Positions 3,027 through 43,364 of a stretch of DNA of 58,535 nt are shown in pieces (the stretch's first letter is position 1; every line of letters begins with the position of its first letter). Below the pieces are notes generated by a model, which worked only from the letters and a program-made list of their open reading frames with translations, searched no databases and was not told the DNA's origin. Made by a program: the position numbers and the translations under genes. The stretch is from Akkermansia muciniphila (GTDB lineage: Bacteria; Verrucomicrobiota; Verrucomicrobiia; Chthoniobacterales; Chthoniobacteraceae): NCBI GenBank assembly GCA_945883955.1, contig CAMCYN010000001.1:1-58535 (forward strand), in the 5' to 3' direction.

Positions 3027-3340
3027 TAGATCTCAACCCATCACAAACGTCTCAACATCGCTTGTCTTTTACTGCGCAATTATTGCCCATTCCAAATCGC
3101 ACCTCCCACACAAAGGCGCAGCGCGACATAAAATACAACACACGACAACCACAGCCCTTAATTCAACTCCATCCACAAGCAACTATCATGCTTAAATATC
3201 GAGATTACGAAGTTAAAGCCCCATACTTAGCCCCGCGTTCGCGGGGTTAACAAAAACCGTCGCTTCAAGTACAATCAAGGCGACTACAAGCTCCCGCCCC
3301 CTGAACTGTCCTGCGCCCGGCTCCCTCCCCCTCCTCACCT

Positions 3341-4651: not shown

Positions 4652-4697
4652 CGGCAATTCGCCGCCCCCCACAGAACCTCTACCCCCTGGAACCACT

Positions 4698-9286: not shown

Positions 9287-9291
9287 ACACA

Positions 9292-10656
9292 ATGGTTCGC
9301 CCACTCATCGCAGCGCTCCTGTTAGCCACACCGCTTCTAGCGGCAGATGCTCCGAACTTCGAAGATCACGTCCTGCCCCTCCTTCGTGATCATTGTGTGA
9401 GCTGTCATCGACCAGGCAAGACTCGCGCCGGTCTGGATCTCACAAACGTGGCGGCTATTGAAAAAGGAGGTTCTTCGGGGGCCTCGGTAGTGCCCGGGGT
9501 TGCGGAGAATAGTCCGTTGTATCGGGCGATCGCGCACATCGGGAAAGAAGAGGCCATGCCGCCGGATAAGGATCGTTTGTCAGACCCCATTCTGAAGGTT
9601 TTTAAGGGGTGGATTGAAGGGGGCTTGAAGCCGACGGCAAGTGGGCTCGCGAAGAAAGCCTCCGCTGTGCTGGATATCGCCATTGATCCCGCGACGCTTG
9701 GAGCGCCGAAGGAACCGATTGTTTACGTCAAAGAATTGCCGTCGACCTTGTCCGAGAGGAAAGGAAGAGCGTTGCCGGTGAGTGCGCTTGCCACAAATCC
9801 GTGGGCCCCGGTTGTGGCAGTCGGCGGGCATCGGGAAGCCGTGTTGCACGATCTGGAAAGCGGCAAACGGATCGGGAGTTTGCCGTTCGCGCCAGGCGAT
9901 GTTCGTGTGTTGCGTTTTAGCCGGAACGGAAAGCTCGTGTTGATGGCTGGAGGAAAGGAGACGGCCTCGGGCAAGGCTGTGCTTGTCGATGTCACCACGG
10001 GGAAAGTTATCGCCACGATCGGAGACGATTTTGATGTCGTGCTGGCCGCAGACCTCAGTCCGGACCAGAGCCTGCTCGCACTTGGCGGGCCTGAAAAACT
10101 CGTGCGCGTGTATCGGGTGGCGGATGGCAGCCTGGCCTACACGGTGAAGAAGCATACGGACTTCATCACGAGCATTGAATTTTCGCCCGATGGAAAGTCG
10201 ATCGCCAGCGGGGACCGTGCGTCGGGCCTTTATATCTATCCTGCGGCTTCGGGCACCTCGCCCGCTCTCATCGAGGGGGTGGTGGATGGGGTGCATCAGC
10301 TTGCGTGGCGGCCGGATGGAAAAGTTTTGGGCGTGGCTTCCGGGGATGGGAGTGCGCTAATTGTGGACCCGGAGAAGCGCAATATCGCCTCTAAATGGGA
10401 CGCTCATAAACGAGGGTGTCTGAGCCTCGCTTTCGCAAAAGATGGTCGAATCCTGACAGGCGGTCATGACGGAACAACCCGGCTTTGGAAAGCTGACGGA
10501 ACTAAGGTAAGCGAAAACGTAGGGTACGCTGGGAGCACCTTCCGCGTCGCCTTTAACCACAACGACAGTGAAGCTTTTGCGAGTGACTGGAGTGGTCAGG
10601 TGCGTGGCTGGAAACTGGATGACGGCAGTGAAGTGCGCCGGTTGAGTTCGCAATAA
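9292..10656 (+). CDS. Planctomycete cytochrome c (PSCyt1) domain fused to a WD40 beta-propeller
   Basis: The N-terminus FEDHVLPLLRDHCVSCHRPGKTRAGLDL carries a CxxCH motif, followed by ..AMPP. After that come repeated WD-like blocks (HTDFITSIEFSPDGKSIASGD, GCLSLAFAKDGRILTGGHDGTTRLW). Confidence 0.8.
   Translation: MVRPLIAALLLATPLLAADAPNFEDHVLPLLRDHCVSCHRPGKTRAGLDLTNVAAIEKGGSSGASVVPGVAENSPLYRAIAHIGKEEAMPPDKDRLSDPILKVFKGWIEGGLKPTASGLAKKASAVLDIAIDPATLGAPKEPIVYVKELPSTLSERKGRALPVSALATNPWAPVVAVGGHREAVLHDLESGKRIGSLPFAPGDVRVLRFSRNGKLVLMAGGKETASGKAVLVDVTTGKVIATIGDDFDVVLAADLSPDQSLLALGGPEKLVRVYRVADGSLAYTVKKHTDFITSIEFSPDGKSIASGDRASGLYIYPAASGTSPALIEGVVDGVHQLAWRPDGKVLGVASGDGSALIVDPEKRNIASKWDAHKRGCLSLAFAKDGRILTGGHDGTTRLWKADGTKVSENVGYAGSTFRVAFNHNDSEAFASDWSGQVRGWKLDDGSEVRRLSSQ
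10637..10655 (+). repeat. 19-nt perfect direct repeat GCCGGTTGAGTTCGCAATA, copy 1 (natural 3' end of the WD40 gene)
   Basis: An identical string occurs at 11921-11939. Weaker similarity extends about 15 nt upstream of both copies, and both copies end in a stop in the same phase (TAA / TAG). Confidence 0.9.
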
Positions 10657-10752
10657 CTACGAGACCGGAAAGGCGGTCCATTTTGCGTACGCAGAAGAGT
10701 TCCTGCCGCCACGTTTTAGGTCCCACCGCAATCACTCCCCCCCAACACCTCC

Positions 10753-11409
10753 ATGAACCGATATAAACCCCCTCTATTTCAGCGTCGCATTATGAGCGGC
10801 AAGCTTTGTCTTGCCGTACTCGGGCTTGTTCTCGCCCCCCTCTGCCTTGCCGCAGATTCCCAAAAGGTGAAGGTACTGGAATCTTGCAACACTGTTGATT
10901 TGAAGGCGCTTAGGATCTACGAAGCAAAAGTGAAGGCAGTAACCACTCAGGATCCAGCGCATCGAAAAGCGATCGAAATAGTGATGGATTACGCCAAAGC
11001 CGGTGCGTGGTCTGGAATTGGGAAAGATTTTCCTCCTGGTGTGAACTTGAAGAAATATTCCGCAATCCGCTTCTGGGTTCGGAGCGACTGCGGCACAGGT
11101 TTTGGATTCGGTCTCGGAGGGGATTACAAAAGGGCCGATGGCAAATACCCTGGGTTTGGCGGGGTAGGATATACAGCCAGTGAGACTTGGACCCAGATCA
11201 CTATCCCCTTGGAAAACTTCAAACGCGGCACGATCAAAACCTGGGACCCGGTAAAGAAGGAGCAGGTTATTCTTCCGGGTGGCGACTCGATGGATGCGCA
11301 AGATCTGGCCAACGTCTCACGCTGGGGCCTTCACAGTTACGTCAATAACCGAGGCACCTCCACCATAGGGCACCTGATGTTTGACGCTTTCGAGTTGGTC
11401 GAAAGATAG
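10753..11409 (+). CDS. Hypothetical secreted protein (possible carbohydrate-binding/CIA30-like fold)
   Basis: 218-aa ORF with a signal peptide (MSGKLCLAVLGLVLAPLCLAADS; an alternative start lies at 10792). The family call is weak. Confidence 0.5.
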   Translation: MNRYKPPLFQRRIMSGKLCLAVLGLVLAPLCLAADSQKVKVLESCNTVDLKALRIYEAKVKAVTTQDPAHRKAIEIVMDYAKAGAWSGIGKDFPPGVNLKKYSAIRFWVRSDCGTGFGFGLGGDYKRADGKYPGFGGVGYTASETWTQITIPLENFKRGTIKTWDPVKKEQVILPGGDSMDAQDLANVSRWGLHSYVNNRGTSTIGHLMFDAFELVER

Positions 11410-11422
11410 GCCCGCACAAGGC

Positions 11423-11920
11423 TCACTCCAAAACACTCTGCTGCAGCGCTTTCGCTACGGCTACTGCGCGTGTTGTCACCTGCAGCTTCCCGTAAATGGC
11501 CCGCATGTGGGTGTCGACAGTGTGGATGCCCACCCCCATCCGGGCCGCGATTTTTTAATTAATCCTTCCACAATGAGGTGCAAAACCTCCCGCTCCCGCT
11601 CCTTTAAGTCGTACGATTCCCCGGGTTCTAGCTTTGCTGCCGGGCGTGCAAAATGTTCGAGCAATTTCCGCGCAACACGATGCGTGAGTGGAGAACCTCC
11701 GGATTGTACGTCACCAATCGCTTCTGCGATTTGTTGAACCAGTGCTGTTTTGAGAAGATAGCCGTGGGCTCCTCCTGGGATGGCAGCGGAGACTTTGGCG
11801 TCATCTTCAAACACCGTGAGGATCAGAATATGCGCTTCCGGTGCGGCCTCGCGTAACTAGGGTATACCCTGCGATCCATCCGTTCCCGGCAACCCAACAT
11901 CTAAGAGGAATGTGAGTTGA
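11423..11920 (-). pseudogene. Decayed NarL/LuxR-type response regulator (paralogue of 16548..17195)
   Basis: Hand translation gives ..LTFLLDVGLPGTDGSQGIP-TAG-LREAAPEAHILILTVFEDDAKV..GYLLKT..YDLKEREREVLHLIVEGLIKK, then a -1 shift, then IAARMGVGIHTVDTHMRAIYGKLQVTTRAVAVAKALQQSVLE-stop. Three lesions are visible. About 45 N-terminal codons are missing. There is an in-frame TAG at 11857-11859. There is a frameshift in the homopolymer at 11551-11556. Confidence 0.8.
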
Positions 11921-11939
11921 GCCGGTTGAGTTCGCAATA
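11921..11939 (+). repeat. 19-nt perfect direct repeat, copy 2 (junction where the response-regulator relic is truncated)
   Basis: Identical to 10637-10655. Homology of the relic to the intact regulator starts immediately inside this copy. Confidence 0.9.
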
Positions 11940-11980
11940 GAGCCTGAAACCAGAAGGTCCCCCCTAGGTGTTCTGGAGCC

Positions 11981-13474
11981 CTACGCCAGCAGGCCCTCAA
12001 TGACGTGCCCATGTACGTCGGTCAGGCGCCGATCGATTCCGTTGTGCCGGAAGGTGAGCTTCGTGTGGTCGATTCCGAGCAATTGGAGAATGGTAGCGTG
12101 AATGTCGTACACCTGCACCGAGTTGGCGCGGTCCGCTGGTTTATAACCCCATTCGTCGCTCTCTCCACACGTCACCCCGCCTTTGATCCCTCCCCCGCAA
12201 AGCCAGTTCGTAAACACGAACGGGTTGTGGTCGCGCCCTTTGCCGCCCTGCCCGCACGGCATTCGGCCAAACTCCGTGGTCCACAGGATGATCGTGTCCT
12301 CTAACAGACCCCGTTCCTTGAGATCCTGGATCAGCGCCACCGTTCCCTTGGCCATACCCGTGGCCAGCGGACCGTGATCGCGTGCGATGTCCTCATGCGA
12401 ATCCCAGTTCCGACGCGGAAACCCGTTGTCATTCCCCGACCAGATTTGCACGAAGCGCACGCCCCGTTCCAAAAGCCGCCGCGCGGTGAGACATTTCCGC
12501 CCGAAAGCGTCTGCTTCCTCGGCCGCATTGATCTCTTTCGGCCACGATTTGGTGCTTTCATCAATACCGTACCGTTCAAGCACGGCGGAAGATTCACCCG
12601 AGAAATCCAGAGCCCCAGGTACCGCGAGCTGCATCTTTGCCGCGAGTTCGTAACTGCGGATCCGTGCTTCCAGACGAGCGTCTCCGGGGCGCTCACTGGC
12701 GTGGCCTTTGTTGAGTTTGGCCAGGAGATCGAGCCCATCCGTTTCGCCTGCGGGAGTGATATAATCGGATTTCGGCGGCAACAAATCTTCGATCGGACGC
12801 TCCGCATTCACCCGCACTATGGTTCCCTGATGTTGGCCGGGCAAAAATCCGGAGTCCCAGTTTTTCTGACCGTTGGAAGGCATTCCACGCAGATCGGGTA
12901 ACACCACGAATGCGGGCAAATTTTCGTTCATGGACCCGAGTGCGTAGCAACCCCAGGAACCCATGCTGGGAAAACCCGGAAGCACAAAGCCCGTGGTCTG
13001 CAGCAGGGTTGCCTGGCTGTGAACGCCCGATTTTCCGACCAGGTTGTGCACAAACGCCATCTCATCCACGACACTCCCGAATGGGGCAACCACTTCGCTG
13101 AGCATCTTGCCGCAGTTCCCGTACGGATTGAATTTCCAGGGCGAAGAGAAGGTCTCCCCCGCGGCGCTCTGAAAAAGTTCCACGGCTTCACCCGGATCCC
13201 ACTTTTCGCCGTGGCGCTTAAAGAGCTCGGGTTTGTAATCCCACATGTCCACGTGGCTGGCGGCTCCCGCCATGAAGAGTTGGACAACGCGTTTTGCTTT
13301 CTGGGGAAAATGGAGAACTCCACTGGTTGGACCGGAAGCGCTTCCGAGGAGGTTTTCCGAGCCGAGCAAACTTGCGAGAGCGATCCCGCCTAAGCCGCCT
13401 CCGGAGCGGAACAGAAACTCGCGGCGTGACAGGTTCTCCGAGACGGTTTGGCGATGATAAGGAGAGGTGTTCAT
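11981..13474 (-). CDS. DUF1501 domain protein with Tat-type signal
   Basis: RREFLFRSGGGLGGIALASLLG near the N-terminus and TTEFGRMPCGQGGKGRDHNPF near the C-terminus. It lies 12 nt downstream of the PSCyt/DUF1553 gene. Confidence 0.85.
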   Translation of the reverse strand: MNTSPYHRQTVSENLSRREFLFRSGGGLGGIALASLLGSENLLGSASGPTSGVLHFPQKAKRVVQLFMAGAASHVDMWDYKPELFKRHGEKWDPGEAVELFQSAAGETFSSPWKFNPYGNCGKMLSEVVAPFGSVVDEMAFVHNLVGKSGVHSQATLLQTTGFVLPGFPSMGSWGCYALGSMNENLPAFVVLPDLRGMPSNGQKNWDSGFLPGQHQGTIVRVNAERPIEDLLPPKSDYITPAGETDGLDLLAKLNKGHASERPGDARLEARIRSYELAAKMQLAVPGALDFSGESSAVLERYGIDESTKSWPKEINAAEEADAFGRKCLTARRLLERGVRFVQIWSGNDNGFPRRNWDSHEDIARDHGPLATGMAKGTVALIQDLKERGLLEDTIILWTTEFGRMPCGQGGKGRDHNPFVFTNWLCGGGIKGGVTCGESDEWGYKPADRANSVQVYDIHATILQLLGIDHTKLTFRHNGIDRRLTDVHGHVIEGLLA

Positions 13475-13486
13475 GGCTCAGGGGGC

Positions 13487-16400
13487 TTAGTCGACAAAGG
13501 AGAACTCGTTCAGGTTCAGAAGGACGCGGCAGGTGTTGGGGAGCCCGTGTTTCTGGGTGAACTCAAGGAGCGCCTGTTTTTCGAGACTGGTTGGGGGACG
13601 GTTTAACGCCAGCTGATAGGCCGCTGCCAGACGGGCCTCCGGATCGGGGCTCAGGGATTCGAGCCGGTGCGCGAAGTGTTTCGCCATCGCCACAACGAGA
13701 CGATTGTTCACCATGGCCAGAGCCTGGAGGGCGTTGACGGTTTCGTTGCGTTTCTCCACTGCCATGGACGGATCCGCACAGTCGAGAACCGCCATAAACG
13801 GTTGCGGCTGCGAGCGTACGATAAATCGATAAATCGAACGCCGGTGTGTCTTTGTGTCTTCGACATCGCTCCACTCATACTCGTAGTGAGGAGAATGCTG
13901 CGGTTTATCTATGACGAAATCCTGATAGCCCGGGCCGCCCATTTGCAGGTCGAGTTTGCCCGAAACAGCCAGAACCGTGTCTCGAACCGCCTCGGCTTCG
14001 AGTTTGCGGCGGTTCATGCGCCACAGGAGTGTGTTGTTCGCGTCGAGTTTTTCGTTCTCAGGATTGCCCACCGAGGACTGACGATACGTGGCGCTTGTGA
14101 CGATCAGCTTGTGAAGCGCTTTGAGCGATTGCGATCCGTCGCGGAACTCGGCGGAAAGCCACTCCAAAAGCTCGGGATGACTTGGCAAACGTCCCATCTT
14201 CCCAAAGTCACTTGGCGAATCACAAATCCCGCGTCCGAAGTGGTATTGCCAGATCCGGTTGGTGATGGTCCTCCAGGTGAGGGGATTCTGTTTGTCACTG
14301 ACCCAGCTCGCGAGGGCCGCGCGACGTTGGCCTTCGGGTTGATCGGCGGGAATGTCAAATTGCGCGGGAAGTTCGCGGAAAAACGAAACGGTGCCCGGCA
14401 GCACTTCGTGAAGCGGTTGGCGTACATCCCCTCGCTTGAGCAGAAAAATGGGCCGCGGTTTCCCACCAGACGCTCCCGTGCCGGCGAAGTTGCCCGTGCC
14501 CCGGTGGATCGTTCCGACGTAAGCCAGTTGCGGCACCGGCAATTTCCGCAGATTGGCTGCGAGCTGAGCCGATGCGGCTTCGTTATCGGAAATCTGTTGG
14601 GAAACGGCGGCAGGATCTTTGCCTTCCTTCGCGCGTAACCCGTTCCGTTCCTGTTCCAGCCCGGCGATAACGGAAGGGTCTGGCTCTGTTCGTGGTCCGT
14701 AGAAGTATCCGTCCACCAGGTTCTGGCGTCCCCACCTCGGCGGGGCGTCAATGGAGTCCAGGGACGTCACGGTTACGCCTCGTGCGATGTTTCGTCCTTT
14801 GGCGTCGAGGACTTCGAGTTCGGCTAGCGCGAAGATGTAATCGTTCTTGCGTGGAGCGAGCTTGGTGGCGGTGAAGCGAATGTAACGGCCTCGTTCATTT
14901 GCTTTGAGATCAAGGGGACGGCAGCCCGGGTTTTCGACATCGGCTGCTAGATGGTTCTCCAGGACTTTCACACCCACTTTGAAGTCTGGATCATCGGAGA
15001 GCTCGATCTTGTACCGAACCGGAAAACCAAACCCCGGTCCGATTCGGTTAAACCAGTCGTGACAGGCCACGTACCGGATTTTCTGGAAACTCTGAATCGA
15101 GCCCAAATCCAGTTGCACCCATTTCGTGACGTCCTGCTGGGATTCGATCCGGCTGTGGTAACCAAACTCGACGCGTTCGACGGCGCTTCTGCCCTCTTTG
15201 AGTTCCGCGATTCGCTTTTCGAGTAAACCAATCCGGTTCTCTTCCTGAGCCGTTCTTTTGTCGTTGAGGCGCTGGCGTTCGTCGTCCAAACGCCTTTTCT
15301 CGCTTTCCAGACGTTGGCGGGTGGCCGCGATTTCGGGGTCCGGATCAAACGGTTTGTCCGAACGATCCAGCGCTGAAAAGACGGCCTGAAGCCGATAATA
15401 GTCCTCCTGTTTTATCGGATCGAACTTGTGGTTGTAGCACCGGGCGCATTGTACGGTTGTGGCGCAGAAGGTGTTCATCGTGTTCGCGACCATATCGTCG
15501 CGATCGAGCGATCGGGCGATTTTGCCGTCGGTCTTACTCTCCGAAACTTCAGCGTGCCCGACCAGATCCCAGGGGCCGGCCGCGATAAACCCCGGAGCGG
15601 ACCAGCCGTCTTCGGTGCCTGGAAAAAGAACGTCCCCCGCGATCTGTTCCTGCACAAAACGCGCGTAGGGTTTGTCGGCATTTAGCGAACGGATGACGTA
15701 ATCGCGATACGGCCAGGCGTTGGGCCGGGGTTTGTCTTTGTCGTAGCCGTGTGTGTCGCCGTAATGCACCACATCGAGCCAGTGCCGCGCCCAGCGTTCG
15801 CCGTACCGGGGTGAGGCGAGAAGACGTTCGGCGAGTTGGCCGATGGCGTTTTCTTTATCCAGCGCAGCCGCTTTTTCGAACTCGGCAGTTTCCTCGGGTG
15901 TTGGAGGCAGGCCGGTGAGATCAAAACTCATCCGGCGAATCAGGGTGCGAGAATCGGCTTCGGGCGCTGGGGACATTCCCTTTTCGGCGAGTTTCTGGAG
16001 AACGAACCGATCGATTGGGTTGCGCGCGGACCCGGCGGGGATCGGGGGTTGCTGAAGCGGCTTTAAGGACCACCAGTCTAAGGGATCCACTTTTGCCACC
16101 GTTTGGCTTTCCGGCCACTGGGCTCCCTGATCTATCCAGGCGCGCAAAACGCCGATTTCTTCGGGCGAAAGCTTTTCGCCTTTGGGAGGCATTTTGGTGT
16201 CCGGATCTAGTCCGGCGACGAATTGGATGAGGGGACTCTCGGCGCTTTTGCCGGGGTGAATATTGGGAGCGTGTTCATCGCCTCCGGTGAGGGCGCTGTC
16301 TTTTTGGTCCAGGCGATAGCCGCCCTTTTGTTTTTCTTCGCCGTGGCATTTGAGGCATTTGGCTTCGAAGATCGGCTGAACATCCCGGGTGAAGTCGATT

Positions 16401-16492
16401 TTTCTATCGGCGGCTGGAGGCAGCGAGGCGGCGGCGGCCAGAGTCGTGCAGCTCACCAATGGAATGAAAACCAGGGGGGACAGGAACTTCAT
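13487..16492 (-). CDS. PSCyt1 + DUF1549 + coiled coil + discoidin (F5/8 type C)-like insert + DUF1553 protein
   Basis: FEAKCLKCHGEEKQKGGYRLD (CxxCH), VQCARCYNHKFDPIKQEDYYRLQAVF and NRIWQYHFGRGICDSPSDFG are family hallmarks. The insert is WVQLDLGS..GFGFPVRYKIELSDDPDF..RYIRFTATKL..ALAELEV. The likely start is MKFLSPL at 16492; the track ORF extends to 16537. Confidence 0.85.
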   Translation of the reverse strand: MKFLSPLVFIPLVSCTTLAAAASLPPAADRKIDFTRDVQPIFEAKCLKCHGEEKQKGGYRLDQKDSALTGGDEHAPNIHPGKSAESPLIQFVAGLDPDTKMPPKGEKLSPEEIGVLRAWIDQGAQWPESQTVAKVDPLDWWSLKPLQQPPIPAGSARNPIDRFVLQKLAEKGMSPAPEADSRTLIRRMSFDLTGLPPTPEETAEFEKAAALDKENAIGQLAERLLASPRYGERWARHWLDVVHYGDTHGYDKDKPRPNAWPYRDYVIRSLNADKPYARFVQEQIAGDVLFPGTEDGWSAPGFIAAGPWDLVGHAEVSESKTDGKIARSLDRDDMVANTMNTFCATTVQCARCYNHKFDPIKQEDYYRLQAVFSALDRSDKPFDPDPEIAATRQRLESEKRRLDDERQRLNDKRTAQEENRIGLLEKRIAELKEGRSAVERVEFGYHSRIESQQDVTKWVQLDLGSIQSFQKIRYVACHDWFNRIGPGFGFPVRYKIELSDDPDFKVGVKVLENHLAADVENPGCRPLDLKANERGRYIRFTATKLAPRKNDYIFALAELEVLDAKGRNIARGVTVTSLDSIDAPPRWGRQNLVDGYFYGPRTEPDPSVIAGLEQERNGLRAKEGKDPAAVSQQISDNEAASAQLAANLRKLPVPQLAYVGTIHRGTGNFAGTGASGGKPRPIFLLKRGDVRQPLHEVLPGTVSFFRELPAQFDIPADQPEGQRRAALASWVSDKQNPLTWRTITNRIWQYHFGRGICDSPSDFGKMGRLPSHPELLEWLSAEFRDGSQSLKALHKLIVTSATYRQSSVGNPENEKLDANNTLLWRMNRRKLEAEAVRDTVLAVSGKLDLQMGGPGYQDFVIDKPQHSPHYEYEWSDVEDTKTHRRSIYRFIVRSQPQPFMAVLDCADPSMAVEKRNETVNALQALAMVNNRLVVAMAKHFAHRLESLSPDPEARLAAAYQLALNRPPTSLEKQALLEFTQKHGLPNTCRVLLNLNEFSFVD

Positions 16493-16547
16493 GGCGCCGA
16501 TTCTAGGCGCAAGCCAGAGGTTCGGGAAATCACGCAAACGCGTGGTT

Positions 16548-17195
16548 TTACACCAACTTTTCCTTGAGCGCCTTGGCGACCGCTTCCGAGCGGGTATTCA
16601 CTTCGAGCTTGATGTAAATCTTCCGCAAATGGCTGTCGATGGTGTGAATGCTTAGCCCCAGCGCTTGTGCGATCTCCTTTTTGAGTTGGCCAGTTGTGAG
16701 ATGATTCAGAATCTCAATCTCACGTTCACTCAGGTCGTAATCCTTCGTGGGCCGCCCAAACTGGGAAAACATCTCCAGCACACGGCGCGCAATCCGCCCA
16801 TTCATGGGCGCCCCGCCCCCAACCACCTCCCGAATCGCAGCCGTGATTTCTTCCGGGGACGCCGTCTTCAGCAGATACCCCGCAGCACCCGCACAAATGG
16901 CCCGGAAGATTTTGTCGTCATCGTCGAACACCGTGAGAATTAGAATTTTGGTGTCCGGCAGTTTCTCCCGGAGTAATGGGAGCGCATGCAGCCCACTCAT
17001 CCCGGGAAGGCCTACATCGAGCAGGATGATGTCGGGTTTAAGGCCACGTTCGGTGGCCGCCAGAGCATGTTCGCACCGGGCGAATCCTTCGGTGCATTCG
17101 AACCCGTCCTGGCTTTCCAAAACCCGAGCCAGCGTACGCCGGAAGGTGGTGTTGTCTTCAATGAGCCAAATCTGGAGGGGCGAAGGCGAACTCAT
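16548..17195 (-). CDS. NarL/FixJ-type response regulator (REC + LuxR HTH)
   Basis: Phospho-acceptor region IILLDVGLPGMSG. C-terminal HTH LSEREIEILNHLTTGQLKKEIAQALGLSIHTIDSHLRKIYIKL. ATGA overlap with the kinase gene. Confidence 0.9.
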   Translation of the reverse strand: MSSPSPLQIWLIEDNTTFRRTLARVLESQDGFECTEGFARCEHALAATERGLKPDIILLDVGLPGMSGLHALPLLREKLPDTKILILTVFDDDDKIFRAICAGAAGYLLKTASPEEITAAIREVVGGGAPMNGRIARRVLEMFSQFGRPTKDYDLSEREIEILNHLTTGQLKKEIAQALGLSIHTIDSHLRKIYIKLEVNTRSEAVAKALKEKLV

Positions 17196-19168
17196 GGGAG
17201 CTGAAACGTTAACTCTACTTGAGTTCCGTTGCCGGGAGCAGCCGTGAGTACGAGCGCTGCGCCGAGCGCTTCGGCGCGCTGCCGTAGCAGATCGAGGCCG
17301 AGGCCACTGGTTGGGTTTTCGGAATCGAACCCCACGCCATCGTCACTGACCCGGAGTTGAAATTCGGAGCCATTCTGTTGAATAACGATTCGGACGTGGT
17401 TGGCCTGCGCGTGTTTACGGATGTTGTTCAGGGTCTCTTTGAAGAACAGCAGGATCTGGCGTTCCTGTTCGAGGTTGAATGGACCGGGCACCTCCCGCGA
17501 ATCGAAGGAGTACTCGGTTCCGGTTAAAAGTTGCGCGGCAGTTTCCCGAAGCCGCAGTAAAAGCCCGGAAGCGGTCCTGGGGCCGGGTTGAAGGAGCCAG
17601 ACGATGTCTCGCATCGAATCGGCGGTGTCCTGGGCGATTCTTTGGACTTCCTGCATATCGGATCGAGCGTGATCGGGAGGCCGGGTGGACCCGGAAGCAA
17701 GGCGACTGAGCAAAGCGATGCTGCCGAGGTTGCTGCCGATTTCATCGTGAAGATCGGCGGAGAGTCGTTTGCGCAGATCTTGAAGAGCGCGTTCACGAAG
17801 GCCTCGCTGGCGAACCATCCACAGAAGGATTCCGGCGCCAAAGAATACCGTCGCGAACAGGGTAACGAGCGCAATTCGGTGGAGGGTGTGGGTGACGCTT
17901 AAAGTCTCCTGGGCTTCGAGTTGGCTCACTTCGCGTTGGAGTTCGCGGCGACGGGAGAGTCCCCGCAGCCAGGAGTCCAGAGGCATCAAGCGACCCACGC
18001 TGGTAAATCCATCGTTGAGGAAAGACGGATTCCATCTTGGGGTGATGGTTTGGTCGGAGGCGGCGACTTGCCCGTTTGGGGCGACATTGATTCCACCCGA
18101 GAAAATCTGCATCTCGCTGAGTGCGCAAACGAAGTCGTTGTTTCGTTGCCAGAGCTTTGTGGCGGTCACTCGAACGTACCGCGCCCGTTTGCCTCCGGCA
18201 GAAATGGACACCGGGTTGGCTTTTGGATTTTCGGCATCGGACTCCTCATATCTTGCGATGGAAGTGGCGTCGGCGAGATCCGGTTGGTTGCCGATCTCGA
18301 CCCGGAACCTTAGCGGGAATCCAAAGCCTGACCTGGCGGGGAAATCGACTGGAGCTGCGCTGAAGAGACGGATTTCCTCGAGGGACATTTCGCTACCCAG
18401 ATCGATTTGTACCCAGGTGGTCAGGTCGGGGGTCTTTGCGATGGCCGAATGGTAACCATTACTCGGGGATGGGTCTGTGAGAACAGGACTGCCTAGAGGG
18501 GTGAAACCATCGGTGGCGTTTGCAGGATCCCAGGCGGGCGGATTGTTGGCAGAATCACTGGCGGTTACGGGGCGATGGGCGGCGAGGTTACGTTCCCCGC
18601 GCAAGACCATGAGTTCACCGAGTGCAAATACGGAACGAGTGCCGGGAGTGGAGAGTTTGGTGGCGGTGACACGAATATACCGGCTTTGGGTGCCGGGAAG
18701 ATCCGCCACGACGGGGAGGGAACCGGGGTTGGAGAAATCGGTTTCGGTGTAGTCTGCAAGCACCGTGGACTGGGTGAAATCGGGCGAAGTCGCGCTTTCG
18801 ATCCGAAAACGTTTGGGAAAACCGTACCCTGCGGTTTCACCGCCGCCATCAGGCAGGGTGACCGGGATGAGGGCAATAGAGTCGAAGGATTCGGTGGCGC
18901 CGAGGTCGACTTGCAGGAATTTGGTCACCAGGCCGGCGGGGGGGGCGAAGTTACTGTGCCAGCCGAGGTGAGAGGTGTTTTCGCTTCTGAGAAACGAGGG
19001 GAGAGAGGCTAATTCGGTGCGAGCGGCGGTGAGTTGTTGGTGAATTGAGCGGACTTCCTGGGAAACGCTTTGGGCGAGTTGGGTGGAGAGGCCGCTTTGA
19101 GCGTGGGTGATTTGGGAAAGGAGAAAGAACGCGAAGCTGAGCGCGAGTGGGGTTCGCAGGAGAGGCAT
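17192..19168 (-). CDS. Sensor histidine kinase (HisKA_3 + HATPase_c) with two periplasmic discoidin-like modules
   Basis: Signal peptide, then two modules (FLQVDLGATESF..GYGFPKRFRIE..RYIRVTATKL and WVQIDLGSEMSL..GFGFPLRFRVE..RYVRVTATKL). A TM segment (IALVTLFATVFFGAGILLWMV) follows, then the H-box LSADLHDEIGSNLGSI and ATPase blocks (NNIRKHAQA, DDGVGFD, GLGLDLLRQRA). Confidence 0.85.
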   Translation of the reverse strand: MPLLRTPLALSFAFFLLSQITHAQSGLSTQLAQSVSQEVRSIHQQLTAARTELASLPSFLRSENTSHLGWHSNFAPPAGLVTKFLQVDLGATESFDSIALIPVTLPDGGGETAGYGFPKRFRIESATSPDFTQSTVLADYTETDFSNPGSLPVVADLPGTQSRYIRVTATKLSTPGTRSVFALGELMVLRGERNLAAHRPVTASDSANNPPAWDPANATDGFTPLGSPVLTDPSPSNGYHSAIAKTPDLTTWVQIDLGSEMSLEEIRLFSAAPVDFPARSGFGFPLRFRVEIGNQPDLADATSIARYEESDAENPKANPVSISAGGKRARYVRVTATKLWQRNNDFVCALSEMQIFSGGINVAPNGQVAASDQTITPRWNPSFLNDGFTSVGRLMPLDSWLRGLSRRRELQREVSQLEAQETLSVTHTLHRIALVTLFATVFFGAGILLWMVRQRGLRERALQDLRKRLSADLHDEIGSNLGSIALLSRLASGSTRPPDHARSDMQEVQRIAQDTADSMRDIVWLLQPGPRTASGLLLRLRETAAQLLTGTEYSFDSREVPGPFNLEQERQILLFFKETLNNIRKHAQANHVRIVIQQNGSEFQLRVSDDGVGFDSENPTSGLGLDLLRQRAEALGAALVLTAAPGNGTQVELTFQLP

Positions 19169-19294: not shown

Positions 19295-20038
19295 TCATAC
19301 ATAACGCCCACTCTTTGCTTCACAATGCGCGTTCGTCAGAGGAGCCCGGTGCGGGAAATCCGCACGCCGTGATCTGCGATGGAACTGTCGGGCAACCGGC
19401 AGTTCTACCTCAATAACTTCCTGTTCCTCCAACGGGCCCAGGATCACGATGAACACCTCCAGTCGTTCAATCACCCAAGCAGGAGCCTGCACTTTGATCG
19501 CAGTCCATGCCTTTCCTTTCCACCATTTCCCTGTGACATGGATGTTTTGCGTCACAAGGACACTCCGGCCCATCGCCGCCAGTCGTTGGCGTTCTCGCAC
19601 CAGTTGTTGCCGCTGCCGGGTGATGGCACGTTCCCTCTCTTCGTCCACCGTCGGAATACGTATCACACTGAACTCCATGTGATTCCCGCGCTCGTACCGA
19701 TCCAGACGCTGACATAACGCGGCAGCATCCAGCCGGTCGTTCTTCACGCCTTTGACGCGTTCATCCCAGTCCTGAGGTTGCACTACGTAGTTCTTGATGC
19801 CGAGTTCCTCTAACCGGCGATGCAGATGAAATCCGAAAGCCCCCGCTTCGTAACAAGTCACGACTTTATCTGTGAGCTTCTGTTGCTTGACCACGAACAG
19901 AAGCAGTTCGTCGTAGGTCATCTTCTGGACCGGCTGCGGCGGCGCGCCATCGACCTGCCGGCTCACCCAGTAATATCTAGCGTGAGCGTCGATCCCGAGT
20001 TTGATCGCTTCGTAAGAGGGAGTGGCGGTTGTCATCAC
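19295..20038 (-). mobile_element. IS110-family transposase, N-terminal (DEDD) domain only; 3'-truncated relic
   Basis: IKLGIDAHARYYWV..VVTCYEAGAFGFHLHRRLEELGI..VKNDRLDAAALCQ matches the IS110 N-domain. The expected C-terminal Transposase_20 domain (~150 aa) is missing, and the tail after ~aa 205 looks like non-coding read-through. Confidence 0.7.
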
Positions 20039-21269: not shown

Positions 21270-23249
21270 CTACCACAGCATCAGCACGCTCACATGCAGC
21301 CTGGACGAACCGGCCTTCACCTGGGGGAGCCCGGGTTGATTCTGCTCGTTCAGAGCACACCCCAAGTCGGTCCGCAGCATTCCGTTCAGCTTGCCGCGAA
21401 ACACCATGTCCATCCCCACCCCCGCCCCAACAAGTGAGCGGTCTCCCACCTCCCCGAATCCCGGTTTCGCCTGATTCACATGGACCTGCGCGCCGTCCAC
21501 AAAGCCCCGCAACGCCACCTCCACCGGAAGCCCTTTGCCCACAAACCATCCGGCCCTCGACTGCCCCCGGGCCGCCGCCCTGTCCGATTCCACCCCGACG
21601 CCGCGCGGAACCCGCATTTCGGAGTCTGTCTCGGACTGTGCTTCCTTCTGCCTTGCAGCAGCTTCTCTGGCCCACCGCCCCCTCAAGAAATCGTTTAACC
21701 GCAACCGATACTCCGCAGTCGCAAAAGATACCGTGTCCCCAGCAGCCAAAGACTCGCGGTACCCACGCACCGAATCCATTCCCCCGGCCACGCCTTGGAA
21801 CTGCGGCACCAACCGCGCCTGATCCCAGGCCACCTGGCCCCTCATGTTCAAGGCCAGCTCGTGTGCACCGCCCAGAGCCGCCTTTTTAGCTGAAAACAAA
21901 TCCAAGAATTTCACCGCCCGGCGGCTGAACATCACATTCCAGCGGGAAACCAACGCCTCCTCGGCTGGATTGACCCGACCCAAAATCGCATTGTCTCGAT
22001 CCTCCGTGGCGGCGTATTCGGTCTGAAACGAACCACTCAGACGCCCAAGGCGGCCCGGTTTTTCAGCCGCCACCGACACGTACGGAACCAGGAACGTCGA
22101 ACTTCCCTCCTGCCCCGCCACATCATTCCGCACCGCCGCATCCAAAACATAAGCTCCGCCCGTAATCGAAAGGGGCCACGATTTCCCCAAATCGGGCGTC
22201 CAAGTGCTCTGCACTCCCAAAGTCTGCGAGGTGGACCGGAATCCCAAGCCCAACTGCCCCAGATCCGCCAGCGACAGATCCGAGTACGACCCATACACCC
22301 GCAGTTTCCATATGTCGGGAAACACGAGTGTGGACTCCGATGCAATGGAAACGCTCTTGTACTTCTCAAAATCCGAAGTCGTGTAATCCAGCGTCTCCAC
22401 ATCGTCCGCGCCCCACGCCTGGCGCAGCTCTACCCCCAGGCGGCTCCGCCACTCGCCGGATTCCTTGTTCCCCGAGTTGGAGGTCAGCACACTTGCGCTT
22501 AAGCGCTTCTGCTCCTGCTCAAGCAGGGTCAGGTTCAACGTCCCCGAGGCTTCCCCCGGCGCTAGCACGCTCTCCGCTCGGCGTCCAGAATACCGGTTCA
22601 CCCGATCCAGATAATTCTGCAGCGCGTCTTTGCGAAGCAAAGCTCCGGGTTGAAGGGGAGACTGAGCCGCTATGCGTTTTCCCACGGACTCGGCGGGAAA
22701 CAGCCACGCCGGCCCGGCTCCCGTGCGCCGCAGGAAGTCCAGTTTGGCCACCCGGCTGTAGTACACCAGCATCCGCAGCTCCCCTTGTCCGGCCAGCCGG
22801 TTCTCTACAAGGGGGCTGACTCCCAAATCAATCTGCCCGGGATCAACCACCACCAAAACTCCATAAATACCTTGCTGATTGAGTTTCGAAACCACCGCTC
22901 GGCTCACTGCCACAATCGCCGAAGCACCAAAACGACGCGCCTTTCCATCCCCCCCAAGCCGCACTTTCTCCGAGCCCTTTTCCCCCGGAAGTAAGGCCGC
23001 CATTTGCCCGGAAACAGACTTGAGCGGCACCTCCAGTTTTTCAAAAACTGTCAGATCAGGGAGCGAGCCATCCCGCCCCTTGCCATCCTCGGGATCCTGA
23101 TAGGCAAACACAAAACGCGTCACCGCCACACTGGATTCTTGAGCGGCAAGTTCTGTGGGAACAGCCGAAGAACCAGTCGCACTTCGCAAACACACCGCGC
23201 CGACAAAGATGGAAACGGAAATCGAAGCAACAGAAATAAAATTCCTCAT
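21270..23249 (-). CDS. ShlB/FhaC-type outer-membrane transporter (TpsB-like) of a two-partner secretion pair
   Basis: Signal peptide from MRNFISVASISVSIFVGAVCL (start at 23249; the track ORF extends to 23303). The size and glycine/aromatic-rich beta-strand pattern fit an outer-membrane barrel, and the protein ends in a terminal aromatic residue (..VSVLMLW). It lies immediately downstream of a TPS-domain gene. Confidence 0.6.
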   Translation of the reverse strand: MRNFISVASISVSIFVGAVCLRSATGSSAVPTELAAQESSVAVTRFVFAYQDPEDGKGRDGSLPDLTVFEKLEVPLKSVSGQMAALLPGEKGSEKVRLGGDGKARRFGASAIVAVSRAVVSKLNQQGIYGVLVVVDPGQIDLGVSPLVENRLAGQGELRMLVYYSRVAKLDFLRRTGAGPAWLFPAESVGKRIAAQSPLQPGALLRKDALQNYLDRVNRYSGRRAESVLAPGEASGTLNLTLLEQEQKRLSASVLTSNSGNKESGEWRSRLGVELRQAWGADDVETLDYTTSDFEKYKSVSIASESTLVFPDIWKLRVYGSYSDLSLADLGQLGLGFRSTSQTLGVQSTWTPDLGKSWPLSITGGAYVLDAAVRNDVAGQEGSSTFLVPYVSVAAEKPGRLGRLSGSFQTEYAATEDRDNAILGRVNPAEEALVSRWNVMFSRRAVKFLDLFSAKKAALGGAHELALNMRGQVAWDQARLVPQFQGVAGGMDSVRGYRESLAAGDTVSFATAEYRLRLNDFLRGRWAREAAARQKEAQSETDSEMRVPRGVGVESDRAAARGQSRAGWFVGKGLPVEVALRGFVDGAQVHVNQAKPGFGEVGDRSLVGAGVGMDMVFRGKLNGMLRTDLGCALNEQNQPGLPQVKAGSSRLHVSVLMLW

Positions 23250-23319
23250 GGGTGGGAAGAAAGGAGGAGGCGCCCGCAAAGACGCCTCCCCAAGAAGACT
23301 CAAAACTTAGAACAACGGA

Positions 23320-43352: not shown

Positions 43353-43364
43353 GGGAGGAAAGGG

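What the first reader, a model, noticed from the sequence alone, without database searches (positions are those of the whole stretch)
11981..19168. Kinase and effector share a private discoidin-like module: a domain-matched two-component / PSCyt-DUF1553 / DUF1501 operon
- **Gene packing:** Four minus-strand genes are packed with a 4-nt ATGA overlap (kinase/regulator) and 10-12-nt gaps. They encode the HisKA_3 kinase, a NarL-type regulator, a 1001-aa PSCyt1-DUF1549-insert-DUF1553 protein and a Tat-signal DUF1501 protein.
- **Kinase modules:** The kinase periplasmic region holds two ~120-aa modules, FLQVDLGATESF..GYGFPKRFRIESATSPDF..RYIRVTATKL..FALGELMV and WVQIDLGSEMSL..GFGFPLRFRVEIGNQPDL..ENP..RARYVRVTATKLWQRNNDFVCALSEMQI.
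- **Shared insert:** The same module (WVQLDLGSIQSF..GFGFPVRYKIELSDDPDF..ENP..RGRYIRFTATKLAPRKNDYIFALAELEV) is inserted after a coiled coil between the DUF1549 and DUF1553 parts of the neighbouring protein.
- **Control:** The paralogous DUF1553 protein of locus 1 has no such insert.
- **Fold:** The pattern resembles the F5/8 type C (discoidin) ligand-binding fold.
- **Hypothesis:** Sensor and co-transcribed effector recognise the same extracytoplasmic ligand. That would make this a self-contained sense-and-respond unit for a gene-pair class that is massively expanded in PVC bacteria but functionally undefined as far as I know.
Basis: partly seen in the sequence, partly recalled or inferred. Interest (0 to 1): 0.7.

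Follow-up and report, generated by a model that had tools for sequence, protein, structure and literature searches.

The report
Discoidin-sensing kinase controls PSCyt/DUF1501 genes
A two-component sensor kinase and the neighbouring 'planctomycete cytochrome'/DUF1553 protein carry the same unusual sugar-binding-type module, and a conserved DNA palindrome in front of the DUF1553 gene links the two, giving the first regulatory clue to a large gene family of unknown function.

Summary
Four minus-strand genes encode a HisKA_3 kinase with two periplasmic discoidin modules, a NarL-type regulator, a PSCyt1-PSCyt2-module-PSD1 protein and a Tat-signal DUF1501 protein.

- **Module similarity:** kinase and PSD modules align at 37-39% identity (E 6e-29 and 1e-23).
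- **Module type:** it is a distinct CBM32/discoidin subfamily with a GFGFPxR motif, apparently circularly permuted. Strong matches occur only in these two protein architectures.
- **Adjacency is asymmetric:** 29 of 47 assessable kinase loci in Verrucomicrobiota and Planctomycetota carry a module-bearing PSD gene. Only 4 of 80 module-bearing PSD loci carry the kinase.
- **New regulatory evidence:** the 55-nt regulator-PSD spacer holds a palindrome, CACGC-GTTT-GCGTG, then 25 nt, TAGAAT, 7 nt and the ATG. This geometry recurs across loci. The palindrome precedes module-bearing PSD genes in 30 of 46 kinase-linked loci against 2 of 77 without the kinase (p = 9e-15). It also precedes many kinase genes.

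So this is an autoregulated two-component system driving a separate PSD-DUF1501 promoter, not one operon. A shared ligand is plausible but untested. The modules show no locus-specific matching. F5/8C inserts in PSCyt proteins were already published; the kinase link and the operator appear new.

The parts
17192..19168 (-). Sensor histidine kinase, 658 aa. Predicted layout: TM1 (aa 5-20), periplasmic helix (25-55), two discoidin modules, then one continuous helix (397-493) running through TM2 into the HisKA_3 dimerisation domain (H474), followed by HATPase_c.
   Evidence: Pfam. AlphaFold2 model with mean pLDDT 90.5. H474 and other catalytic residues are invariant in 109 homologues.
18461..18967 (-). 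Kinase module 1 (aa 68-236): LGWHS...FLQVDLG...GYGFPKRF...RYIRVTATKL...FALGELMV...NLAAHRPVTASD...W...DG.
   Evidence: BLASTP against the PSD insert gives 39% identity, E 1e-23. Translation checked.
17969..18460 (-). Kinase module 2 (aa 237-400): NGYHS...WVQIDLG...GFGFPLRF...RYVRVTATKL...ALSEMQI...NVAPNGQVAASD...W...DG.
   Evidence: BLASTP against the PSD insert gives 37% identity, E 6e-29. Translation checked.
16548..17195 (-). NarL/LuxR-type response regulator, 215 aa (receiver domain plus GerE helix-turn-helix). Its start overlaps the kinase stop by 4 nt.
   Evidence: Pfam Response_reg E 5e-22 and GerE E 6e-14. NCBIfam matches lie below the equivalog cut-offs for NarL, NarP and MctR.
16531..16544 (-). 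Palindromic operator-like core CACGC-GTTT-GCGTG (extended site 16529-16546). It starts 4 nt after the regulator stop codon. Its centre lies about 44-45 nt upstream of the PSD ATG.
   Evidence: Sequence read directly. The 18-mer with up to 3 mismatches occurs 28 times in the fetched loci against about 1 in shuffles. The exact core lies upstream of module-bearing PSD genes in 30/46 kinase-linked loci against 2/77 others, p = 8.6e-15.
16500..16505 (-). -10-like hexamer TAGAAT, 25 nt after the palindrome and 7 nt before the PSD ATG. This predicts a leaderless or nearly leaderless transcript.
   Evidence: The same layout (palindrome, 23-25 nt, TAnnnT, 5-7 nt, ATG) appears in 14 aligned loci. The composite pattern occurs 31 times against 1-4 in shuffles.
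13487..16492 (-). Exported PSCyt1 (CxxCH) - PSCyt2/DUF1549 - coiled coil - discoidin module - helix - PSD1/DUF1553 protein, 1001 aa, with an N-terminal signal peptide.
   Evidence: Pfam. The start is fixed by the conserved promoter geometry and by homologues. There is no solved-structure relative by sequence.
14663..15166 (-). Discoidin module inserted between PSCyt2 and PSD1 (FGYHS...WVQLDLG...GFGFPVRY...RYIRFTATKL...ALAELEV...NIARGVTVTS...W...DG). It is flanked by long helices.
   Evidence: Translation. AlphaFold2 mean pLDDT 92.6. Foldseek's top hits are CBM32 modules and factor VIII / lactadherin C2 domains. Permutation test.
11981..13474 (-). DUF1501 protein, 497 aa, with a twin-arginine signal (SRREFLF). 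It starts 12 nt after the PSD stop. It is probably an alkaline-phosphatase/sulfatase-superfamily enzyme.
   Evidence: Pfam E 1.5e-130. The Tat motif is conserved in homologues. hhalign against sulfatases gives probability 85%, E 5.8e-6.

Best explanation
The region encodes a two-component system and the gene pair it controls.

**Sensor (architecture shown, sensing role inferred).** The kinase exposes two tandem, circularly permuted discoidin/CBM32-type modules in the periplasm. They sit between an N-terminal helix and a long helix that runs through the membrane straight into the HisKA_3 dimerisation domain. I infer that binding of an extracytoplasmic ligand, most likely a glycan or glycoconjugate, shifts this helix and changes autophosphorylation.

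**Regulator and promoter (motif shown, binding inferred).** The phosphorylated NarL/LuxR-type regulator is proposed to bind as a dimer to the palindrome C(C/A)CGC-N4-GCG(T/G)G. This palindrome sits about 44 nt upstream of the PSD start, in the position of a class II activator site. From there it would switch on a leaderless PSD-DUF1501 transcript. In many relatives the same palindrome precedes the kinase operon, which implies autoregulation.

**Induced products (inferred).** These are an exported haem-c protein that displays one copy of the same module subfamily on a helical stalk, and its Tat-exported DUF1501 partner, which looks sulfatase-like. I infer that they capture and process the class of molecule the kinase senses.
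For: - **Architecture and similarity:**
- **Module distribution:** strong matches to the module profile occur only in HisKA_3 kinases and PSCyt/PSD1 proteins. At E <= 0.001 there are 2226 cluster representatives. Every odd-length top hit that I checked was a kinase or a PSD fragment.
- **Fold:** discoidin/CBM32.
- **Neighbourhood:** 29/47 assessable kinase loci have a module-bearing PSD, mostly in the order kinase-regulator-PSD on one strand. Among PSD genes near the kinase, 34/52 carry the module, against 0/15 bystander PSD genes (p = 3e-6).
- **Co-divergence of the four genes:** identities for kinase / regulator / PSD / DUF1501 are 62/80/69/88% in L167, 53/68/65/80% in L169, and 42/60/56/69% in a Gemmataceae locus.
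- **Operator:** the 18-mer occurs 28 times against about 1 in shuffles. The composite of palindrome plus -10 box occurs 31 times against 1-4 in shuffles. The palindrome travels with the PSD gene when that gene lies 3-6 kb from the regulator (L022, L024, L042). It is tied to the presence of the kinase: 30/46 against 2/77, p = 8.6e-15.
- **Kinase model:** one unbroken helix runs from the second module through TM2 into the dimerisation domain.
Against: - No ligand, binding assay or expression data exist.
- Only about 5% of module-bearing PSD genes have the kinase next door.
- The closest kinase relative (78% identity) is followed by sulfatases instead of PSD. Homology to the window stops at the regulator's stop codon.
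- Kinase and PSD modules from one locus are no more similar than modules from different loci (0.356 against 0.358, and 0.398 against 0.385). There is therefore no sign of matched specificity.
- No clear palindrome lies upstream of the window's own kinase; an IS110 remnant sits there.
- That the adjacent regulator is the protein binding the palindrome is inferred from co-occurrence only. The transcription start is not mapped.
- Verrucomicrobiaceae loci keep kinase-regulator-PSD without DUF1501. This fits a co-sensor role for PSD about as well.
Confidence: 0.55

Rival explanations
1. The PSD protein is a co-sensor rather than an effector. In this reading the shared modules mediate protein-protein contact between the PSD protein and the kinase, either directly or through a common partner. 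The kinase would then read the state of the PSD protein instead of a free ligand, as in LuxP/LuxQ or TorT/TorS.
For: - In Verrucomicrobiaceae loci the conserved unit is kinase-regulator-PSD(module) with no DUF1501 after it.
- He et al. filed F5_F8_type_C among protein-protein interaction domains (PMC5615132).
- In both proteins the module sits at the tip of a helix-module-helix stalk.
Against: - No same-locus co-variation of modules is seen.
- The PSD gene carries an inducible, activator-type promoter, which is typical of a target gene.
- Most module-bearing PSD proteins exist without any such kinase nearby.
Confidence: 0.17
2. The module is an envelope anchor, not a signal receptor. As factor V/VIII C2 domains bind membranes, it would tether both proteins to a lipid or cell-wall component. 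The kinase would then monitor envelope state.
For: - Foldseek hits include the lactadherin and factor VIII C2 membrane-binding domains.
- The GFGFPxR loop and about 17 other residues are nearly invariant across all three module classes and two phyla. This suits a constant cellular target better than varied environmental glycans.
Against: - The best structural matches are glycan-binding CBM32 modules.
- The insert site in PSD proteins hosts other carbohydrate-binding modules in paralogues, for example NPCBM and Laminin_G_3 (PMC3542564).
- Some PSD proteins carry 2 or 4 tandem copies, which is typical of avidity for polymers.
Confidence: 0.13
3. Common descent without functional coupling. The kinase once borrowed a module from a PSD gene, adjacency reflects the general clustering of PVC-specific genes, and the palindrome is a terminator or repeat element rather than an operator.
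For: - These genomes are full of PSD/DUF1501 pairs. Other PVC pairs (PSCyt3/DUF1552) are also enriched near the kinase, at 0.20 against 0.04 per 10 kb.
- The palindrome directly follows the regulator's stop codon and could fold as a hairpin.
- The closest relative lacks the PSD neighbour.
Against: - Bystander PSD genes never carry the module (0/15 against 34/52).
- The palindrome has no U-tract.
- It also lies upstream of kinase genes that have no co-directional gene before them.
- It keeps a fixed 23-25 nt distance to a -10 box and the ATG.
- It moves with the PSD gene when that gene is displaced.
- All four genes diverge in parallel.
Confidence: 0.1

Closest known systems
DUF1501 + PSCyt1/PSCyt2/PSD1 gene pairs of PVC bacteria (Kamneva et al. 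2012, PMC3542564; He et al. 2017, PMC5615132)
   Same: - The PSD and DUF1501 genes here are a textbook example: CxxCH motif, DUF1549 and DUF1553 domains, and a Tat-signal DUF1501 directly downstream.
- Those papers already note that the PSCyt protein sometimes carries an F5_F8_type_C or Laminin_G_3 domain.
   Different: - Neither paper mentions a histidine kinase, a response regulator or any regulatory element.
- The permuted GFGFPxR subfamily, its sharing with a kinase, and the operator are not described there.
CBM32 / F5/8 type C (discoidin) domains
   Same: The module has an eight-stranded beta-sandwich fold. Foldseek's best hits are CBM32 modules of Clostridium perfringens glycosidases, chitosan-binding modules, and factor VIII / lactadherin C2 domains. 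Pfam PF00754 matches it.
   Different: - The canonical N-terminal segment (NxAxGxxVxxS...W...DG) lies after the core, which makes the module a circular permutant.
- Single modules score at or below Pfam's threshold.
- Sequence identity to solved structures is 14-21%.
- The ligand is unknown.
RsgI anti-sigma factors / SigI of Clostridium thermocellum (e.g. PMC4711584, PMC6852018)
   Same: The logic is the same. A membrane sensor carries, outside the cell, the same kind of carbohydrate-binding module as the secreted proteins it controls.
   Different: - The signalling chemistry differs: regulated proteolysis of an anti-sigma factor there, HisKA_3 phosphotransfer here.
- The phylum differs.
- The controlled genes here are not known glycoside hydrolases.
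HisKA_3 / NarL-family two-component systems (NarXL, UhpBA, LiaSR, DesKR)
   Same: - HisKA_3 plus HATPase_c kinase.
- Receiver plus GerE regulator.
- Overlapping kinase and regulator genes.
- Palindromic DNA target.
- TM2 connects directly to the dimerisation helix, as in DesK.
   Different: - All NCBIfam equivalog scores lie far below their cut-offs, so it is not an orthologue of any named system.
- I found no described precedent for a discoidin sensor domain in this kinase family in the searched literature.
LuxR-type class II promoters (lux box centred near -42.5; from general knowledge)
   Same: An 18-bp inverted repeat sits about 44 nt upstream of the predicted start, overlapping the -35 position, next to a gene for a GerE-type regulator.
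   Different: - The regulator here is phosphorylation-dependent, not autoinducer-dependent.
- The transcript is predicted to be leaderless.
- Both binding and the transcription start are unmapped.

Membership tests
F5/8 type C (discoidin) / CBM32 domain | Significant match to Pfam PF00754 at or above the gathering score | tested here: met
   The kinase scores 53.3 bits against a cut-off of 28.2. The PSD insert alone scores 23.2-27.8 bits, just below the cut-off.
F5/8 type C (discoidin) / CBM32 domain | Eight-stranded beta-sandwich fold matching solved discoidin/CBM32 structures | tested here: met
   The AlphaFold2 model has mean pLDDT 92.6. Foldseek gives 19 PDB hits at E <= 0.001, all discoidin or CBM32, with target-normalised TM-scores of 0.39-0.59.
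F5/8 type C (discoidin) / CBM32 domain | Canonical order of strands, with the NxA..V.aSS..DG segment first | tested here: not met
   - In the single-copy PSD insert this segment follows the core. It forms the eighth strand (TVTS) at high confidence.
- Moving it to the front extends Pfam profile coverage from positions 25-30 down to 2-11 and adds 1.4-4.8 bits.
- No model coordinates were available to check the contacts directly.
F5/8 type C (discoidin) / CBM32 domain | Binds a carbohydrate or other defined ligand | not testable with these tools
   This needs glycan arrays, ITC or a co-crystal structure.
HisKA_3 / NarL-type two-component system | Kinase with a HisKA_3 domain (conserved His) and HATPase_c, paired with a receiver plus GerE regulator | tested here: met
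   Pfam. H474 and the N and G boxes are invariant in 109 homologues. The kinase and regulator genes overlap by 4 nt.
HisKA_3 / NarL-type two-component system | Orthology to a named system (NarXL, UhpBA, LiaSR, MctSR) | tested here: not met
   The best NCBIfam scores are 65 bits against a cut-off of 408 (UhpB) and 124 bits against 300 (MctR).
PSCyt1-PSCyt2-PSD1 / DUF1501 module (Kamneva 2012) | PSCyt1 with CxxCH, plus DUF1549 and DUF1553 in one exported protein, with a Tat-signal DUF1501 gene adjacent | tested here: met
   Pfam E-values are 1.6e-15, 4e-78, 1e-85 and 1.5e-130. CLKCH and SRREFLF are seen in the translations. The gap between the two genes is 12 nt.
Class II (lux-box-like) activator-dependent promoter | Inverted repeat centred near -42 relative to the transcription start and bound by the regulator | tested here: inconclusive
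   The palindrome and its fixed spacing to a -10-like box and the ATG are conserved. The transcription start and the binding were not, and cannot be, determined here.
   A conserved promoter-like element lies in the regulator-PSD spacer. No terminator-like site above chance lies at the junctions, so read-through cannot be excluded.

The most novel reading that the evidence does not exclude
PSCyt-PSD1/DUF1501 pairs would be the PVC counterpart of polysaccharide-utilisation loci.

In this reading, the domain inserted between DUF1549 and DUF1553 (permuted discoidin, NPCBM, Laminin_G and others) sets the substrate specificity of a periplasmic haem protein plus sulfatase-like enzyme pair. The discoidin kinase is a dedicated sensor that evolved by capturing that specificity module.

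The palindrome would then define a regulon. In this window it may also include the locus-1 four-gene DUF1501/PPC/PSD1/WD40 cluster, through the second site at 3232-3245.
Probability: 0.3. Interest if true: 0.75.

Novelty: new variant of a known kind. Interest (0 to 1): 0.6.

Why it matters
DUF1549/DUF1553/DUF1501 genes number in the dozens to hundreds per genome in Planctomycetes and Verrucomicrobia. Papers from 2012 and 2017 call their function unknown, and I found nothing newer in the searched library.

A sensor kinase that shares their insert module, together with a predicted operator and promoter, turns this into a testable problem.
- The kinase sensor domain and the PSD insert can be screened for ligands.
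- The regulator and palindrome can be tested by gel shift and reporter fusion.
- Three culturable species carry the system.

The permuted discoidin subfamily and the leaderless, activator-dependent promoter layout are also useful for annotation and for understanding gene regulation in these phyla.

Tried and rejected
- **Exact palindromic k-mer enrichment upstream of 64 kinase genes:** no signal. The motif emerged only from a shared 15-mer between the window and L007.
- **A loose motif with one mismatch:** too permissive, with 428 sites against about 390 in shuffles. I replaced it with the exact core and the composite pattern.
- **Inverted repeats in the window's two spacers, using repeat finder with a 6-nt seed:** none reported.
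- **Generic promoter and terminator scan:** no better than chance.
- **Rfam over the whole window:** no hits.
- **PDB sequence searches:** nothing useful for DUF1501 or PSD. The module profile's best hit had E 0.023.
- **Lipoprotein idea for PSD (LVSC):** dropped, because the Cys is not conserved.
- **Locus-specific matching of kinase and PSD modules:** none found.
- **Stand-alone 260-aa 'discoidin proteins':** these turned out to be fragments of frameshifted kinase or PSD genes.
- **Sulfatase enrichment near the kinase:** weak, at 0.22 against 0.09 per 10 kb.
- **L084 (kinase-like gene with two nearby palindromes):** not resolved.
- **Literature searches linking discoidin kinases to DUF1553/DUF1501:** nothing found.

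Full report
**What is in the window.**

- **Kinase, 17192-19168, 658 aa.** It has two F5_F8_type_C stretches (E 3.9e-14), HisKA_3 and HATPase_c.
- **Regulator, 16548-17195.** It has a receiver domain plus a GerE helix-turn-helix. Its start overlaps the kinase stop by 4 nt.
- **PSD protein, 13487-16492, 1001 aa.** It has a signal peptide, a PSCyt1 domain with a CLKCH haem motif, PSCyt2/DUF1549, an insert, and PSD1/DUF1553.
- **DUF1501 protein, 11981-13474.** It starts 12 nt after the PSD stop and carries an SRREFLF twin-arginine signal.

The closest named relative of the kinase is from a Verrucomicrobiota genome assembled from a metagenome (78% identity).

**The shared module is real.**

BLASTP aligns kinase residues 238-408 with PSD 459-631 at 37% identity (E 6e-29). 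It aligns kinase 68-236 with PSD 458-622 at 39% identity (E 1e-23). The unit is about 165 aa. It runs from GYHS through WVQxDLG, GFGFPxRF, RYxRxTATKL and ALxExxV to a tail, NxAxxxxVxxxD..W...DG. The locus-1 paralogue (6869-9286) has only about 45 residues between its DUF1549 and DUF1553 domains and no module.

**What the module is.**

An AlphaFold2 model of the PSD insert is confident (mean pLDDT 92.6). Its best PDB matches are CBM32 modules of Clostridium perfringens glycosidases, chitosan-binding modules, and factor VIII / lactadherin C2 domains. E-values are about 1e-4, and target-normalised TM-scores among the 19 hits at E <= 0.001 are 0.39-0.59.

The fold appears circularly permuted.
- The segment that opens a canonical discoidin domain (NxAxGxxVxxS...DG) follows the core here.
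- It supplies the eighth strand at pLDDT of 90 or more.
- Nothing but a coiled coil precedes the core.
- Moving the tail to the front extends Pfam profile coverage from positions 25-30 down to 2-11 and adds 1.4-4.8 bits for all three modules.

I had no model coordinates, so the permutation is well supported but not proven.

The kinase model (mean pLDDT 90.5) shows TM1, a periplasmic helix and the two modules. One unbroken helix then runs from residue 397 through TM2 into the dimerisation domain.

**How private the module is.**

A profile of the three modules finds 2226 cluster representatives at E <= 0.001 among 1.84 billion proteins.
- The top hits are about 650-aa kinases with two copies, at 150-200 bits per copy.
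- PSD proteins carry one, two or four copies.
- Every odd-length top hit I checked was a HisKA_3 kinase or a PSD fragment.
- Generic multi-discoidin proteins reach the list only by summing many weak repeats of about 30-50 bits each.
- Short 'stand-alone' hits are pieces of frameshifted genes.

Across 277 modules the three classes (kinase module 1, kinase module 2, PSD module) are separate. In 274 cases the nearest neighbour belongs to the same class. Same-locus kinase-PSD pairs are no more alike than pairs from different loci (0.356 against 0.358, and 0.398 against 0.385). The sharing is therefore old and at family level, not matched locus by locus. Seventeen residues are near-invariant in all three classes, including DLG, GFPxR, R554, T556, E573, W602 and D609.

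**Conservation of the neighbourhood.**

*Starting from the kinase.* A scan of one genome per species found at least 585 loci, and I kept the best 80. Of these, 77 are kinase loci.
- 37 of the 77 hold a module-bearing PSD gene. Among loci with at least 4 kb on both sides the figure is 29 of 47 (62%).
- The usual order is kinase-regulator-PSD on one strand. A few loci are divergent or have the PSD upstream.
- Carriers include Chthoniobacterales, Verrucomicrobiaceae (Prosthecobacter, Brevifollis), Opitutales, and planctomycetes such as Gemmataceae.
- Among PSD genes near the kinase, 34 of 52 carry the module. Among bystander PSD genes, 0 of 15 do (p = 3e-6).

*Co-divergence.* The four genes diverge together.

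| Locus | Kinase | Regulator | PSD | DUF1501 |
|---|---|---|---|---|
| L167 | 62% | 80% | 69% | 88% |
| L169 | 53% | 68% | 65% | 80% |
| L002 | 43% | 60% | 58% | 69% |
| L004 (Gemmataceae) | 42% | 60% | 56% | 69% |

*Starting from the PSD insert.* The picture reverses. Only 4 of 80 metagenome loci have the kinase, although 48 of 62 assessable loci have DUF1501 next door.

*An exception.* The closest kinase relative (L001, 78% identity) is followed by two sulfatases, and homology to the window ends exactly at the regulator's stop codon.

*A variant.* In Verrucomicrobiaceae the unit is kinase-regulator-PSD without DUF1501.

**A conserved operator and promoter (new).**

The 55-nt regulator-PSD spacer reads TAA-aac-CACGCGTTTGCGTG, then 25 nt, TAGAAT, 7 nt and ATG.

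The palindrome C(C/A)CGC-N4-GCG(T/G)G recurs with the same geometry (palindrome, 23-25 nt, TAnnnT, 5-7 nt, ATG) in front of module-bearing PSD genes in 14 aligned loci from two verrucomicrobial orders. A Gemmataceae locus (L004) carries the palindrome and a -10-like box at the same spacing, but its annotated start lies further downstream.

Statistics:
- The extended 18-mer with up to 3 mismatches occurs 28 times in 2.4 Mb of fetched DNA, against about 1 in shuffles.
- The palindrome plus -10 composite occurs 31 times, against 1-4 in shuffles.
- Of 100 exact cores (51 expected by chance), 31 lie just upstream of module-bearing PSD genes and 24 just upstream of kinase genes.

Behaviour of the site:
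- It travels with the PSD gene when that gene lies 3-6 kb from the regulator (L022, L024, L042).
- In Chthoniobacterales it also precedes an upstream PSD-DUF1501-kinase-regulator operon.
- It is tied to the kinase: 30 of 46 module-bearing PSD genes in kinase loci have it, against 2 of 77 elsewhere (p = 8.6e-15).

The centre lies about 44 nt before the predicted start. That position, and the gene for a GerE-type regulator next door, fit a class II activator site. The short distance from the -10 box to the ATG predicts a leaderless mRNA.

The TTG at 16537 that the ORF listing reported as the PSD start lies inside the palindrome. This confirms the ATG at 16492 as the start.

The window's own kinase has no clear site upstream. 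An IS110-like remnant sits there, and only a half-site is shared with L001.

**Interpretation.**

The best reading is an often autoregulated two-component system that activates a separate PSD(-DUF1501) transcription unit.
- **Shown:** the regulatory wiring has strong comparative support.
- **Inferred:** that the adjacent regulator binds the palindrome; that the kinase senses a glycan-like ligand through its modules; and that the PSD module binds the same class of ligand.

DUF1501 looks like a member of the alkaline-phosphatase/sulfatase superfamily (hhalign probability 85%, E 5.8e-6). This fits a processing role.

The rivals are a co-sensor role for PSD, an envelope-anchor role for the module, and descent without coupling. 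They are laid out separately with the tests that would decide between them.

**Relation to what is known.**

Kamneva et al. 2012 (PMC3542564) described DUF1501 plus PSCyt1/PSCyt2/PSD1 pairs and noted occasional F5_F8_type_C inserts. He et al. 2017 (PMC5615132) listed the same domain combination and stated that nothing is known about function. Neither paper mentions a kinase, a regulator or a cis-element. Searches combining these terms found nothing.

The logic resembles the RsgI/SigI biomass sensors of Clostridium thermocellum, where a membrane sensor carries the same kind of binding module as the enzymes it controls. The signalling chemistry differs.

I therefore rate this a new variant of a known kind. 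Its interest is above average because it offers the first experimental handle on a very large orphan gene family.

Noticed in passing
window 3232-3245: A second palindrome, CCCGC-GTTC-GCGGG, lies in the divergent spacer between the 351-aa ORF 1971-3026 (-) and the locus-1 DUF1501 gene (ATG at 3341). It has -10-like boxes at the conserved spacing on both strands: TACAAT after 24 nt on the + strand and TAATCT on the - strand. Locus 1 may belong to the same regulon. About 1.2 core sites are expected by chance in the window and four are present, so this is only a lead.
   Followed up: partly
window 3341-10656 (+): 'Locus 1' is the four-gene cluster that Kamneva et al. 2012 called the most complex DUF1501 locus. 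It comprises DUF1501 (3341-4651), a PPC-domain protein (4698-6872), Big_2-PSCyt2-PSD1 (6869-9286) and PSCyt1-WD40 (9292-10656).
   Followed up: partly
window about 11429-11910 (-): A decayed paralogue of the response regulator lies directly downstream of DUF1501. tblastn (E 2e-39, second segment 49% identity) covers from about regulator residue 57 to the C-terminus. It has an in-frame stop and a frameshift, and the N-terminus is missing. It may be a remnant of a second kinase-regulator pair, as in loci ordered PSD-DUF1501-kinase-regulator (L016, L017, L121).
   Followed up: partly
window 19295-20038 (-): A truncated IS110-family transposase (DEDD_Tnp_IS110, 26.4 bits, below the 29-bit cut-off) lies 126 nt upstream of the kinase. 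In Chthoniobacterales relatives a PSD-DUF1501 pair and an operator occupy this position. The insertion sequence may have displaced the kinase promoter.
   Followed up: partly
window 42039-45923 (-): This is a pair from the second PVC-specific family: DUF1552/HXXSHH (437 aa) plus a PSCyt3-type protein (852 aa). Such pairs are enriched next to the discoidin kinase in other genomes (23 of 77 loci; 0.20 against 0.04 per 10 kb). In Prosthecobacter-type loci they often sit immediately upstream of the kinase.
   Followed up: partly
window 21270-25275 (-): A two-partner secretion pair: a ShlB/FhaC-type transporter (21270-23303) and a TPS-domain exoprotein (23320-25275).
   Followed up: no
L031 4062-7823, L073 3072-6716, L039 8510-13192: These PSD proteins carry two (L031, L073) or four (L039) tandem copies of the module between DUF1549 and DUF1553 (P0250 and P0240 from the protein search likewise). 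None of the three loci has the kinase nearby.
   Followed up: partly
L051 12428-15271; L055 9044-12304: Downstream of the kinase-regulator pair, these PSD proteins carry a different insert of 287 and 437 aa. The L051 insert looks like another, unrelated discoidin-like domain (NLALAAKG...IDG...PWFEIELS) that the module profile does not detect.
   Followed up: partly
L004 (Gemmataceae, GCA_028288765.1) 3691-12063: A planctomycete carries the whole unit, including the palindrome. Its identities to the window (42/60/56/69%) equal those of a metagenome locus with the same gene order (L002). This suggests transfer of the unit between phyla. Two small genes (an HTH_5 regulator and an unknown) sit between the regulator and the operator.
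   Followed up: no
L001 12634-15694; L066 11716-13110: Where the kinase lacks a PSD neighbour, classical sulfatases sometimes sit next to it. The L066 case is in a Bryobacteraceae (Acidobacteriota) genome. DUF1501 is distantly sulfatase-like, so the regulator's targets may be interchangeable enzymes of that superfamily. The enrichment is weak.
   Followed up: partly
window 10753-11409 (+): A small exported protein with a sub-threshold CBM_11 match (23.2 bits against a cut-off of 27) lies between locus 1 and the regulator pseudogene.
   Followed up: no
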